24,000 nucleotides of DNA, taken from Thermithiobacillus tepidarius DSM 3134 (GTDB taxonomy: Bacteria; Pseudomonadota; Gammaproteobacteria; Acidithiobacillales; Thermithiobacillaceae). Under the pieces are notes generated by a model. It was not told where the DNA came from. It saw only the letters and a list, made by a program, of their open reading frames with translations, and ran no database searches. The first letter of the stretch is position 1. The number at the start of each line of letters is the position of its first letter. A program made the position numbers and the translations under genes. Shown here piece by piece: positions 22,589-24,000 of this stretch. The DNA is taken from assembly GCF_048300925.1 (NCBI RefSeq), contig NZ_CP133759.1; one strand, written 5' to 3'.

Positions 22589-22993
22589 ATGTCCGAATCC
22601 GAACCCAAACCCGCGCTACGCAAGCTGCAGCCGCTTTGCGCCCAGATACCGCTGCCTACCATCCGGGCGGTGGTGGATGACTTCTACAACCGCATCCAGC
22701 AACACCCCACCCTGGCGGAGCCCTTCGCCGCCGTGAGCGACTGGGAGCTGCACAAGGATCGCCTGACCCACTACTGGTGGACGGTCATGGGCGGCCAGCC
22801 CTACCGCAACTACGGCTACGCTCTGGGCGACAAGCACGCGCCCGTGGGCATCACCCATGCGCTGGTGGACGACTGGCTGGCGCTCTTCTACGAGACCCTG
22901 CTCGATCACCTGGAACCGGAGCTGGCACAGCGCTGGCTGCGCCTGGCCCAGGGCATCGGCGAATCGCTGCGACTCATGTTCGCCCGAGACTAG
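22589..22993 (+). CDS. Truncated haemoglobin (bacterial-like globin family)
   Basis: ATG follows GTGGAGG. VDDFYNRIQQHP carries the TyrB10 context. HYWWTVMGGQPY and KHAPVGI (proximal His context) are also present, followed by WLALF. Confidence 0.7.
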   Translation: MSESEPKPALRKLQPLCAQIPLPTIRAVVDDFYNRIQQHPTLAEPFAAVSDWELHKDRLTHYWWTVMGGQPYRNYGYALGDKHAPVGITHALVDDWLALFYETLLDHLEPELAQRWLRLAQGIGESLRLMFARD

Positions 22994-23092
22994 CGGCGCC
23001 CGCGACCCCACCTCCATCTTCCGGGGAGGATCGTGCCCCCTCGTCGCACTGACACGATAGGTCGTCCGTGTGCGTCACCCGCCCGGGCCGAT

Positions 23093-23107
23093 TGACAAAT
23101 TTTGTCA
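23093..23107. promoter_or_regulatory. 15-bp perfect palindrome TGACAAATTTTGTCA, nested in a longer imperfect inverted repeat; candidate activator site
   Basis: Read directly. It is flanked by CGGGCCG (23084-23090) and CGGCCCG (23110-23116), giving a 33-nt imperfect inverted repeat (23084-23116). GTCACCC repeats at 23074 and 23104, 30 bp apart. The palindrome centre is ~65 bp upstream of the sigma54 -24 box. Confidence 0.45.
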
Positions 23108-23162
23108 CCCGGCCCGCAGTCCATCCAGCAGAAAACCAGGTTTTTCCTCACTTCCCGCCTGT

Positions 23163-23178
23163 TGGCACCCGATTTGCT
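23163..23178 (+). promoter_or_regulatory. Sigma54 (RpoN) promoter TGGCAC-CCGAT-TTGCT
   Basis: tTGGCACccgatTTGCTa matches the -24/-12 consensus YTGGCACG-N4-TTGCW, with exact GG/GC spacing. It lies in a 300-nt intergenic region, ~115 nt upstream of the next CDS. Confidence 0.6.
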
Positions 23179-23293
23179 ATCCCCGCTAGGCAGTCAATTT
23201 TTTGACGCCCAAGAAACCAACCTAGGTTACTGATTTTACATGTCTTTTCGCCAAAGGCCTCTTCAGAAGCAGTCGTAACAGAGGAAGCAAATC

Positions 23294-24000
23294 TTGATTA
23301 CAAATTATTTGAGCCGAGCCCGCACCGGGTTCTTCGCCCTTCTTTTGCTTTTTTCCGCTGCGCCCGCCATGGCGGAGCAACCCCAGAAACAAGCCTTTCC
23401 AGAAAACGCCTACGAGCTGCCGCTGAGTCAAAAAAATGACTTGCAGGCCGCCCTCAACAAGCATCGCGTCGTACGCCTGCAGCCGGGCGACTACAGCTCC
23501 GCCGGGACCATCACCTTGGACAGCTGCCAGCAGCTCTATGGCGTAGCGGGCAGCACCAAGCTGTCCAAGGTGGTCGTCAAGGGCGGCACCGCCGGCGCGG
23601 TCCTGAGCGGCGTGCAGAGCGGCCTGGAGTTCCCGGCTTCCAGCCTGGTGACCCACGACAACCTGTTCCAGCGCATCACCGGCGTGGTGACGGTCAACGG
23701 CGCGACCCTGGAAAACAACGTGTTCCTGGATCTCTACGGCCAATTCAAGTTCGACAACAGCGGCGGCGGCTACATGAAGAATAACCGCTTCGTGCGCATG
23801 ACCTCGCAGGGCTACAACCCGGCTTTCGTGCACAAGGGCGACCCCGCCCGCAAGACCGGCGGCAACGTGTGGGTGTGGACCAACATGCTGTCCCCGCCCG
23901 GCGACGCCATGTACCTGGACAACCAGACCGATGCCACCTTCGTCGGCATCGACGCCGAGTCCTGGAACTACTCCCGCCAGGGCAGCAAGGCCATGCTGAC
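23294..24000 (+). CDS. Secreted protein, possibly right-handed beta-helix fold; 3' end cut by the window edge
   Basis: This ORF is not in the supplied track because it has no stop inside the window. TTG at 23294 is 6 nt after GAGGAAG. The frame stays open with high GC3 to base 24000. The signal peptide is FFALLLLFSAAPAMA|EQ. Repeated short G/N-rich strands occur (VVVKGGTAGAVLSGV, VTVNGATLENNVFLD, YMKNNRFVRM). The in-frame ATG at 23240 is followed by TAA at 23276. Confidence 0.65.
   Translation, partial: MITNYLSRARTGFFALLLLFSAAPAMAEQPQKQAFPENAYELPLSQKNDLQAALNKHRVVRLQPGDYSSAGTITLDSCQQLYGVAGSTKLSKVVVKGGTAGAVLSGVQSGLEFPASSLVTHDNLFQRITGVVTVNGATLENNVFLDLYGQFKFDNSGGGYMKNNRFVRMTSQGYNPAFVHKGDPARKTGGNVWVWTNMLSPPGDAMYLDNQTDATFVGIDAESWNYSRQGSKAML

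What the first reader, a model, noticed from the sequence alone, without database searches (positions are those of the whole stretch)
23040..23300. Sigma54 promoter with upstream palindromes and a downstream inverted repeat controlling a secreted protein gene
**Seen directly.** A 300-nt intergenic region contains four elements:
- **Promoter box.** tTGGCACccgatTTGCTa (23163-23178) is a near-consensus -24/-12 box.
- **Upstream palindrome.** About 65 bp upstream lies the perfect palindrome TGACAAATTTTGTCA (23093-23107). It is nested in CGGGCCG...CGGCCCG arms, with GTCACCC repeated 30 bp apart and a further TGACAC at 23050.
- **A/T-tract palindrome.** AAAACCAGGTTTT (23132-23144) lies between them, where a bending protein site would be expected.
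- **Downstream repeat.** GTCAA-TTTT-TTGAC (23193-23206) sits around the predicted start site.

**Established knowledge.** Sigma54 promoters need an enhancer-binding ATPase bound ~70-150 bp upstream, often with IHF-mediated bending.

**Inference.** The TGACA/TGTCA palindrome is the activator site, and the downstream repeat is a possible operator. No enhancer-binding-protein (EBP) gene is visible in the window.
Basis: partly seen in the sequence, partly recalled or inferred. Interest (0 to 1): 0.6.

Follow-up and report, generated by a model that had tools for sequence, protein, structure and literature searches.

The report
PilR-type sigma-54 promoter for secreted glycanase
This is a real-looking sigma-54 promoter whose upstream palindrome is the same docking site found in front of pilus genes in this genome and in many other bacteria. 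The pilus regulator PilR therefore probably also switches on a secreted sugar-polymer-cutting enzyme; this is a well-supported but fairly ordinary extension of a known control circuit.

Summary
All four elements are at the stated coordinates.

**Sigma-54 box.** TGGCACCCGATTTGCT is one of only 7 exact consensus matches in the 2.99-Mb genome. It is the only recognisable promoter in the gap.

**Upstream palindrome.**
- TGACA-N5-TGTCA occurs 4 times in the genome. Each copy lies 55-70 bp upstream of a co-oriented GG-N10-GC box.
- The other three copies serve a short type IV pilin (plus a divergent pilin), a lytic transglycosylase and a sigma factor. A one-mismatch copy precedes the pilW operon.
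- Across the public species collection the composite pattern gave 61 loci. In 26 of them a pilin gene starts just downstream.
- I read the palindrome as a PilR site. pilS-pilR lie about 2.19 Mb away, inside pilBC-pilSR-pilD.

**Conservation.** A sister genus has a homologous promoter with every element at the identical position, but it drives an unrelated GHL15 hydrolase.

**Downstream repeat.** It equals the published FleQ box and recurs at flgA/flgB, fleQ and fliL. Whether it acts as an operator or as a downstream enhancer is open.

**A/T palindrome.** It is unique in the genome, is not conserved in the sister genus, and is no IHF match.

**Gene product.** A 718-aa secreted double beta-helix, GH55/PL6-like.

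**Limits.** No expression data could be obtained. Earlier notes of this scan report the same palindrome at pilA promoters in other genomes.

The parts
23050..23055 (+). Distal half-site TGACAC, at -113 from the TGG of the promoter box
   Evidence: Read. The sister-genus promoter has TGACG at the identical offset of -113.
23073..23080 (+). Distal half-site CGTCACCC, with GTCACC at -89
   Evidence: Direct repeat D1. G001 has GTCACC at the identical offset of -89.
23093..23109 (.). Proximal enhancer palindrome TGACAAATTTTGTCACC, centred about -89 from the predicted start. Proposed PilR dimer site.
   Evidence: It is one of 4 exact TGACA-N5-TGTCA copies in the genome, all paired with sigma-54 boxes. 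The motif lies at pilin promoters in G000, G001 and G280 and in 26 of 61 loci of the species collection. The offsets -70 and -59 are conserved in G001.
23132..23144 (.). A/T-tract palindrome AAAACC-A-GGTTTT between enhancer and promoter. Possible intrinsic bend; function unproven.
   Evidence: It is unique in the genome and is no IHF match at up to 1 mismatch. It is not conserved as a palindrome in G001; only an A/T run at about -22 to -17 from the box is shared.
23163..23178 (+). Sigma-54 -24/-12 promoter TGGCACCCGATTTGCT. The predicted start is near 23189.
   Evidence: Exact consensus. rpoN is present in the genome. No sigma-70-like promoter lies in 22950-23320. G001 has the homologous box AGGCACCCGTCTTGCTATCCCGC.
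23193..23206 (.). Inverted repeat GTCAATTTTTTGAC at about +5 to +18. It is FleQ-box-like and could also form a 5' RNA hairpin.
   Evidence: Its reverse complement, GTCAAAAAATTGAC, equals the P. putida FleQ consensus quoted in PMC6120874. G001 has GTCAACATATTGAC at the identical offset of +30. Similar boxes lie at the flgA/flgB, fleQ and fliL promoters. The hairpin was predicted.
23282..23288 (+). Shine-Dalgarno GAGGAAG
   Evidence: Read; it lies 5 nt before the TTG start.
23294..24000 (+). 5' part of the 718-aa gene for a secreted double beta-helix protein (P0001). The gene ends at genome position 2864441, beyond the window.
   Evidence: ORF and signal peptide. Homologs cover 93-100% of the length. 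AF2 model pLDDT 91.2. Foldseek matches to GH55 and PL6 at E about 1e-6. It stands alone, because a convergent ilvA gene follows.
23427..23440 (.). Second FleQ-like box GTCAAAAAAATGAC (1 mismatch) inside the coding region
   Evidence: It lies in a variable part of the protein alignment. It could be chance.

Best explanation
The 300-bp gap holds a sigma-54-dependent promoter that drives a single gene for a secreted double beta-helix polysaccharide-depolymerase-like protein.

**Proposed mechanism**
- RNA polymerase with sigma-54 binds TGGCAC-N5-TTGCT (23163-23178). It forms a closed complex that cannot open by itself.
- A dimer of the response regulator PilR docks on the palindrome TGACA-N5-TGTCACC, centred near -89. 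PilR is phosphorylated by the PilS kinase and is encoded about 2.19 Mb away in the pilB-pilC-pilS-pilR-pilD cluster.
- Further PilR subunits probably dock on the half-sites at about -115 and -139, which lie three and four helical turns away. An active ATPase ring then assembles.
- The roughly 60 bp of DNA between enhancer and promoter loops, and ATP hydrolysis opens the promoter. Transcription should start near 23189.

**Regulon.** The gene belongs with the pilin genes, the minor-pilin operon, a lytic transglycosylase and a sigma factor.

**Second input.** A FleQ-type box at about +5 to +18 probably lets the flagellar master regulator act on the same promoter. It could block it, or it could activate it from an atypical downstream site.

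**What is shown**
- The motifs, their genome-wide pairing and their positional conservation.
- Their association with pilin genes across phyla.

**What is inferred**
- Which protein binds each site.
- The direction of the FleQ effect.
- The transcription start.
For: **Promoter**
- Exact sigma-54 consensus, one of 7 in the genome.
- rpoN is present.
- No sigma-70-like promoter or terminator in the gap.

**Palindrome paired with sigma-54 boxes**
- All four exact palindromes are followed by a co-oriented GG-N10-GC box, and the control pattern gave none.
- Their genes are a short pilin with a divergent ComP-like pilin, a DUF4124-SLT transglycosylase, and a sigma factor.
- A one-mismatch copy with a sigma-54-like box precedes the pilW operon.

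**PilS-PilR**
- A PilS with the 6TM_PilS domain and a REC-AAA-HTH_8 regulator sit between pilC and pilD.
- The regulator is 58-59% identical to Pseudomonas proteins named PilR.

**Other genomes**
- Sister genus G001 keeps the sites at the sigma-factor, transglycosylase and pilin loci.
- G001 also has a homologous copy of this promoter, with elements at identical offsets of -113, -89, -70, -59 and +30.
- An unrelated family (G280) has two exact tandem palindromes 100-120 bp upstream of a sigma-54 pilin promoter; I also read a third, degenerate copy about 20 bp further upstream.
- The species-collection scan gave 61 loci. In 26 a pilin N-terminus begins within 700 nt of the box, in all but two of them within about 200 nt. 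These come from Zetaproteobacteria, Acidobacteria, Aquificota, Desulfobacterota and Gammaproteobacteria.

**Other activators.** By coordinates, several of the other enhancer-binding-protein genes have high-scoring sigma-54 boxes within a few kb of them, so these activators probably act locally.

**FleQ box**
- The repeat is identical to the published consensus.
- Similar boxes lie at flgA/flgB, fleQ and fliL.
- FleQ is known to act downstream of RpoN sites (reference title seen).
Against: - There are no transcript data.
- The published P. aeruginosa PilR consensus, as quoted in PMC8035640 (TGT-N11-ACA), is not present here by inspection. The assignment to PilR therefore rests on comparative genomics, not on a footprint.
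- The exact palindrome count (4) is within the range of simulated genomes.
- The composite pattern is at background in about 400 other genomes of the class. The box is therefore not universal among bacteria that have PilR.
- Two exact FleQ-like boxes sit at non-flagellar places.
- Pfam matched only a generic receiver domain in the fleQ-position protein.
- There is no IHF site to help bend a short loop.
Confidence: 0.7

Rival explanations
1. The promoter is sigma-54 dependent, but the palindrome is bound by a different enhancer-binding protein of this genome, one of the ten others. That regulator happens to co-regulate pilins and surface-related genes.
For: The genome encodes eleven proteins with a full sigma-54 activator domain. 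Fis-type HTH domains are similar to one another. The published P. aeruginosa PilR consensus does not match. The composite motif is rare elsewhere in the class.
Against: The motif tracks pilin promoters across five or more phyla. PilR is the only enhancer-binding protein known to be dedicated to pilin genes. PilS-PilR are embedded in the pilus assembly cluster. By coordinates, several of the other enhancer-binding-protein genes have strong sigma-54 boxes within a few kb of them.
Confidence: 0.12
2. The downstream inverted repeat acts as RNA, not as a protein site. It forms a 5'-terminal stem-loop (GGCAGUCAA-UUUU-UUGACGCC) that stabilises the mRNA against 5'-end-dependent decay.
For: The predicted fold puts the repeat in an 8-bp hairpin within the first 21 nt of the predicted transcript. 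In G001 the arms are conserved while the loop letters differ. That pattern fits a hairpin as well as a palindromic protein site.
Against: The leader fold is not unusual (z = -1.85). In G001 only the 5-bp core can pair, which makes a weak hairpin. The identical 14-mer recurs in non-transcribed-looking intergenic places and at flagellar promoters upstream of sigma-54 boxes, which fits a DNA site.
Confidence: 0.2
3. The motifs are chance matches in an AT-richer gap, and the gene is transcribed by read-through from the upstream globin-like gene or from an unrecognised sigma-70 promoter.
For: No terminator follows the upstream gene. Motif scans alone are not evidence of function. The palindrome count is not significant by itself.
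Against: Five elements sit at base-for-base identical offsets in a second genus, while the sequence between them has diverged. All four palindromes pair with sigma-54 boxes. No sigma-70-like promoter was found.
Confidence: 0.05

Closest known systems
PilS-PilR / sigma-54 control of the pilin gene pilA (Pseudomonas aeruginosa, Geobacter sulfurreducens, Myxococcus xanthus, Dichelobacter nodosus)
   Same: - There is a -24/-12 promoter, with upstream sites for an NtrC-family response regulator about 80-140 bp from the start.
- PilS and PilR are encoded with the pilus genes.
- The regulon reaches beyond pilA to surface and cell-wall genes. This is reported for Geobacter and D. nodosus, as summarised in PMC6058289.
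- From memory, the TGTC core matches the tandem (C/G)TGTC repeats footprinted in P. aeruginosa (Jin et al. 1994). I did not check this here.
   Different: - The target is a secreted GH55/PL6-like double beta-helix protein, not a pilin.
- The site is a clean TGACA-N5-TGTCAC palindrome, not the quoted TGT-N11-ACA.
- A FleQ-type box sits just after the start.
- The same control cassette drives an unrelated hydrolase in the sister genus.
FleQ boxes of Pseudomonas (GTCaNTAAAtTGAC / GTCAaAAAAtTGAC) at flagellar and exopolysaccharide promoters
   Same: - The sequence is identical to the P. putida consensus on the reverse strand.
- It is placed next to or downstream of an RpoN promoter, as at flhA, fliE and fliL in P. 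aeruginosa.
- The target is a polysaccharide-related gene. A possible second box lies 234 bp away, and pel has two boxes (from memory).
   Different: - In Pseudomonas the exopolysaccharide targets (pel, psl, cdrA) have sigma-70 promoters.
- Here the box lies on a sigma-54 promoter that already has another activator's enhancer.
- FleQ binding and a c-di-GMP response are untested in this lineage.
GH55 beta-1,3-glucanases and two-domain PL6 alginate lyases; RbmB biofilm-matrix lyase
   Same: - It has two tandem right-handed beta-helices and is secreted.
- Foldseek gave E values from 1.4e-6 to 2.5e-6 to PL6 (8bwk) and GH55 (5m5z, 3eqn, 8jhh) structures.
- Some homologs are named GH55 by NCBI.
   Different: - Identity is only 10-12% and TM-scores are 0.2-0.26.
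- The Pfam Beta_helix match is below its cut-off.
- Catalytic residues were not examined, so the substrate is unknown.

Membership tests
Sigma-54 (RpoN) dependent promoter | GG-N10-GC with flanks close to TGGCAC-N5-TTGCW | tested here: met
   Exact match at 23163-23178. It is one of 7 in the genome.
Sigma-54 (RpoN) dependent promoter | The genome encodes RpoN and enhancer-binding ATPases | tested here: met
   One PF04552 match at 2832758-2833234. Eleven full PF00158 matches.
Sigma-54 (RpoN) dependent promoter | Intergenic, co-oriented with a downstream gene, and conserved in relatives | tested here: met
   It lies 116 nt before the TTG start. A homologous box is present in G001.
Sigma-54 (RpoN) dependent promoter | Transcription starts about 12 nt after the GC and depends on rpoN | not testable with these tools
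This needs 5'-RACE and an rpoN mutant.
PilR-dependent enhancer | The same upstream site is present at pilin gene promoters of the same genome | tested here: met
   Site C precedes the short pilin and the divergent ComP-like pilin. A one-mismatch site precedes the pilW operon.
PilR-dependent enhancer | PilS-PilR two-component system is present | tested here: met
   A 6TM_PilS kinase and a REC-AAA-HTH_8 regulator lie between pilC and pilD. The regulator is 58-59% identical to named Pseudomonas PilR proteins.
PilR-dependent enhancer | The site is associated with sigma-54 pilin promoters in other lineages | tested here: met
   26 of 61 loci have a pilin directly downstream. G280 does too, and so does G001.
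PilR-dependent enhancer | Match to the published P. aeruginosa consensus TGT-N11-ACA, as quoted in PMC8035640 | tested here: not met
   By inspection of 23040-23160, no TGT-N11-ACA is present. The same paper notes that the Lysobacter PilR target also lacks it.
PilR-dependent enhancer | Direct binding by PilR and loss of expression in a pilR mutant | not testable with these tools
   Needs EMSA or footprinting, DAP-seq, and genetics.
FleQ box | Match to GTCaNTAAAtTGAC / GTCAaAAAAtTGAC | tested here: met
   The reverse complement of 23193-23206 is GTCAAAAAATTGAC. The consensus was quoted.
FleQ box | The same box occurs at flagellar promoters of the genome, and a FleQ ortholog is present | tested here: inconclusive
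   - Boxes lie in the flgA/flgB gap, upstream of the fleQ-position gene and upstream of fliL.
- The regulator sits in the fliS-fleQ-fleS-fleR-fliE order, but Pfam matched a generic receiver domain, not the FleQ domain.
- Two exact boxes are at non-flagellar sites.
IHF site between enhancer and promoter | Match to WATCAANNNNTTR in the looping region | tested here: not met
   No match with up to 1 mismatch between 23108 and 23162. The only such match in the gap is the downstream repeat itself.
Glycoside hydrolase family 55 | Sequence and fold of two tandem beta-helices with GH55 catalytic residues | tested here: inconclusive
   - The fold is shared (Foldseek about 2e-6), but equally with PL6 lyases.
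- The profile against the PDB gave MnLam55A at E 0.026 and the AlgE4 epimerase at 2.6e-4.
- Catalytic residues were not examined.

The most novel reading that the evidence does not exclude
This is a portable two-input control cassette. It consists of a PilR enhancer, a sigma-54 promoter, a FleQ box at the start site and a conserved leader. It has been kept base-for-base in spacing across two genera while its cargo was exchanged between unrelated secreted glycan-cleaving enzymes (GH55/PL6-like here, GHL15 in the sister genus). It would integrate the pilus regulator (PilR) and the flagellar/c-di-GMP regulator (FleQ) at one sigma-54 promoter, so that matrix-remodelling enzymes are made only in the surface-attached, pilus-on state.
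Probability: 0.25. Interest if true: 0.55.

Novelty: new member of a known kind. Interest (0 to 1): 0.4.

Why it matters
- **A new PilR target.** It adds a concrete, testable target to the PilR regulon: a secreted polysaccharide-depolymerase-like enzyme. The lineage is a Thermithiobacillus-like sulfur oxidiser of the Acidithiobacillia, where this regulation has hardly been studied.
- **A usable search pattern.** TGACA-N5-TGTCAC followed by a sigma-54 box finds pilin promoters in at least five phyla. The pattern can be used to annotate PilR regulons in uncultured genomes.
- **A regulatory question.** The conserved FleQ-type box on the same promoter, and the cargo swap between genera, are small but clean cases for asking how two enhancer-binding proteins share one sigma-54 promoter. 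They also bear on how control regions outlive the genes they drive.
- **An annotation fix.** The full 718-aa gene appears to be under-called in public gene sets.

Tried and rejected
**Gave nothing**
- Orthologous gap comparison: the protein has no homolog in 60 relatives. The only in-genome paralog (61% identical) has no such promoter.
- Promoter-module scan of the species collection: a strict pattern found nothing, possibly because near relatives are left out of that collection.
- Metagenome scan with the box plus following letters: 10 unrelated hits, none with the enhancer or the repeat.
- NCBIfam could not tell PilR from other NtrC-family regulators.
- Literature look-ups did not yield a footprinted PilR motif that could be compared letter by letter.

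**Rejected**
- IHF site at the A/T palindrome.
- Outer GC-rich arms as a functional hairpin or terminator: there is no T-run, and the arms are not conserved in G001.
- Plus-strand ORFs downstream of the gene as an operon: they are antisense shadows of ilvA and a hydrolase gene.

**No clear result**
- Class-wide scan of 400 genomes: the composite pattern is at background outside the family.
- The context of the paralog gave no clear exopolysaccharide cluster.
Full report
**1. Observation**

Reading 22700-24000 confirms every element at the stated coordinates:
- TGACAC at 23050-23055.
- GTCACCC at 23074 and again at 23104 (family D1).
- The palindrome TGACAAATTTTGTCA at 23093-23107, inside longer imperfect arms 23084-23099 / 23101-23116.
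- AAAACC-A-GGTTTT at 23132-23144.
- TGGCACCCGATTTGCT at 23163-23178, with no mismatch to TGGCAC-N5-TTGCW.
- GTCAA-TTTT-TTGAC at 23193-23206.

The gap lies between a globin-like gene ending at 22993 and a TTG-initiated ORF at 23294 that has a GAGGAAG ribosome-binding site and a signal peptide. No sigma-70-like promoter and no intrinsic terminator were found in 22950-23320.

**2. Genomic setting**

The window is positions 2838992-2862991 of a single 2.99-Mb contig with 66.8% G+C.

The downstream ORF runs to 718 aa. It stands alone. The plus-strand ORFs after it are antisense shadows, and the real neighbours are a convergent threonine dehydratase gene and a hydrolase gene.

rpoN lies about 6 kb before the window. 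Eleven genes carry a full sigma-54 activator domain, and none is near; the closest is about 170 kb away.

The organism is a Thermithiobacillus-like member of the Acidithiobacillia. Its PilR is 83% identical to that of Thermithiobacillus plumbiphilus and about 60% identical to Acidithiobacillus proteins. From memory, the size and G+C also fit T. tepidarius; I did not check this.

**3. Is the sigma-54 box more than chance?**

- The exact 11-position consensus occurs 7 times on both strands of the genome. From base composition I estimate about 2.
- With a rough weight matrix built from remembered frequencies, the site ranks 11th of 272 hits above threshold.
- About 25 of the lower hits are one repeated element and can be ignored.

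**4. The palindrome defines a regulon**

TGACA-N5-TGTCA occurs only four times in the genome. Simulated genomes give 0-4 copies, so the count alone means little. The four copies, however, share several properties:
- All have A/T-only spacers.
- All are followed by C.
- All are intergenic by inspection.
- All are followed after 40-55 nt by TGG-N9-TGC on the same strand, whereas the reversed control pattern gave no match.

The four downstream targets are:

| Site | Genome position | Target |
|---|---|---|
| A | 135189 | a sigma-70-family sigma factor, followed by sspB |
| B | 136920 | a secreted DUF4124-SLT lytic transglycosylase; a second, one-mismatch copy lies 41 bp upstream |
| C | 2215012 | a 66-aa Geobacter-type short prepilin, plus a divergent ComP-like pilin with its own sigma-54 box |
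| D | 2862084 | the present gene |

A one-mismatch copy (TGACGGAATTTGTCAC) with a sigma-54-like box precedes the operon containing pilW.

**5. Which activator?**

One of the eleven activators sits in the order pilB-pilC-pilS-pilR-pilD. Its partner kinase has the PilS six-helix membrane domain. It is 58-59% identical to Pseudomonas proteins named PilR. By coordinates, several of the other activator genes have strong sigma-54 boxes within a few kb of them.

The decisive comparative test was a scan of one genome per prokaryotic species for TGACA-N5-TGTCAC, a gap of 37-59 nt, then TGGCAC-N5-TTGC.
- It returned 61 loci. For uniform composition I estimate about 6 by chance.
- In 26 of them a type IV pilin N-terminus (GFTLIELM...) begins within 700 nt downstream of the box, in all but two within about 200 nt.
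- These 26 come from Zetaproteobacteria, Acidobacteria, Desulfurobacteriaceae, Desulfovermiculus, Porticoccus and Lysobacterales.

A further family of the same class (G280) has two exact tandem copies 100-120 bp upstream of a sigma-54 pilin promoter; by eye there is also a third, degenerate copy about 20 bp further upstream.

The palindrome is therefore a pilin-promoter enhancer in many phyla, and PilR is the natural candidate.

There are two caveats:
- The P. aeruginosa consensus quoted in PMC8035640 (TGT-N11-ACA) is absent here. That paper notes the same for a Lysobacter PilR target.
- The composite pattern is at background in about 400 other genomes of the class.

Earlier notes of this scan describe the same palindrome at pilA promoters in other genomes. 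I used them as leads only.

**6. Phylogenetic footprint**

G001 is the only other genome of the family and belongs to another genus.
- It keeps the palindrome and sigma-54 box before the orthologous sigma-factor gene.
- It keeps them before the transglycosylase gene, again with two sites 41 bp apart, and before the pilin pair.

G001 also has a homologous copy of the present promoter. Measured from the first base of the box, both genomes have these elements at the same offsets:

| Offset | Element |
|---|---|
| -113 | TGAC(A/G) |
| -89 | GTCACC |
| -70 | TGACA |
| -59 | GTCACC |
| +30 | GTCAA-N4-TTGAC |

The letters after the -12 element (GCTATCCC) and parts of the leader are shared too, while the sequence between the elements has diverged.

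The outer GC arms and the A/T palindrome are not conserved.

The cargo differs. G001's copy drives a 452-aa GHL15 (PF14885) lipoprotein. G000 has no homolog of that protein, and G001 has no homolog of the beta-helix protein.

**7. The downstream repeat**

Its reverse complement, GTCAAAAAATTGAC, is letter for letter the FleQ consensus proposed for P. putida (GTCAaAAAAtTGAC). It is also close to that of P. aeruginosa (GTCaNTAAAtTGAC). Both are quoted in PMC6120874.

In this genome there are 17 boxes with zero or one mismatch and an A/T-rich spacer. They include:
- one in the flgA/flgB gap between divergent sigma-54 boxes;
- one about 90 bp before the activator gene that occupies the fleQ position (fliC-flaG-fliD-fliS-x-fleQ-fleS-fleR-fliE-fliF);
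- one 87 bp before the fliL sigma-54 box.

A one-mismatch copy lies inside the present gene at 23427-23440.

Two other exact copies are at non-flagellar sites. The authors of PMC6120874 themselves warn that the motif is not specific in P. fluorescens.

[quoted passage not shown] 2002, seen). It is also known to repress pel (PMC3424551, abstract). The box at about +5 to +18 could therefore repress or activate.

Two alternatives remain:
- A 5' RNA hairpin is predicted, but the leader fold is not exceptional (z = -1.85).
- The repeat is also the only IHF-like match with at most one mismatch in the gap.

**8. The A/T palindrome**

It is unique in the genome. It is no IHF match and is not conserved as a palindrome in G001. 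Only an A/T run about 20 nt before the box is shared. A bending role is possible but unsupported.

**9. The product**

- Pfam gives only sub-threshold beta-helix matches.
- There are 114 homologs in scattered phyla, and NCBI names a few of them GH55.
- The AlphaFold model is confident (pLDDT 91.2, pTM 0.92). It shows two tandem beta-helices after a disordered signal peptide.
- Foldseek finds PL6 alginate lyases and GH55 glucanases at E about 1e-6, and also RbmB and phage tailspikes. Identity is 10-12% and TM-scores are low.
- I read it as a secreted polysaccharide depolymerase of unknown substrate.

**10. Verdict**

This is a sigma-54 promoter with a PilR-type enhancer, which makes it a new regulon member of a known kind. 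The FleQ input and the cargo swap are the less ordinary parts and remain inference. No expression data could be obtained.

Noticed in passing
L005:4378-4578 (+), genome 2215378-2215578: A 66-aa prepilin whose mature part is about 52 aa ([32 protein letters not shown]...). It is a Geobacter-type truncated pilin in an Acidithiobacillia genome. It is followed by a 124-aa ORF and an ABC-2 permease gene, and it is divergent from a ComP-like 169-aa pilin.
   Followed up: partly
L029:5021-6640 (-), genome G001 contig C1: The sister genus carries a homologous copy of the whole control region, with enhancer half-sites, sigma-54 box, FleQ-like box and leader at identical offsets. It sits in front of an unrelated GHL15-family lipoprotein. 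Neither genome has the other's cargo gene.
   Followed up: yes
window 23294-24000 and beyond (L001:386-2542): The gene seems under-called in public gene sets. The matching cluster representative is only 426 aa (the C-terminal 59%), and the first-stage track listed an antisense ORF instead. Homologs and the structure model support the full 718 aa.
   Followed up: partly
L004:3189-4301 (+), genome about 135.2-136.3 kb: A sigma-70-family sigma factor gene, followed by sspB, has the PilR-type palindrome and a sigma-54 box. This is conserved in G001. A Salinisphaera aquimarina locus (L094) shows the same arrangement before a sigma-factor-like ORF. It suggests a PilR to sigma-factor cascade.
   Followed up: partly
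genome-wide, e.g. 11134, 70972, 350718 ... 2951911: About 25 identical copies of TGGCACGCGACATGCT lie inside a repeated, IS-like element. They are false positives for sigma-54 scans.
   Followed up: no
genome 418557 and 492886: Two further exact GTCAAAAAATTGAC boxes share the 17-mer GTCAAAAAATTGACGAT. One lies about 100 bp before an M23 peptidase gene next to an rpoH-like sigma factor gene. The other lies after a Mg-chelatase-like gene. These are non-flagellar contexts.
   Followed up: partly
L049, L052-L054, L057, L059, L066, L068, L078, L087, L098, L100, L106, L107 and others: In Steroidobacteraceae and related MAGs, a conserved TGACAATTCCTGTCAC plus sigma-54 box precedes small 55-80-aa ORFs rather than pilins. 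This is a lineage-specific target of the same kind of enhancer.
   Followed up: no
window 23427-23440: A second FleQ-like box, GTCAAAAAAATGAC, lies 234 bp after the first, inside a variable part of the coding region.
   Followed up: partly
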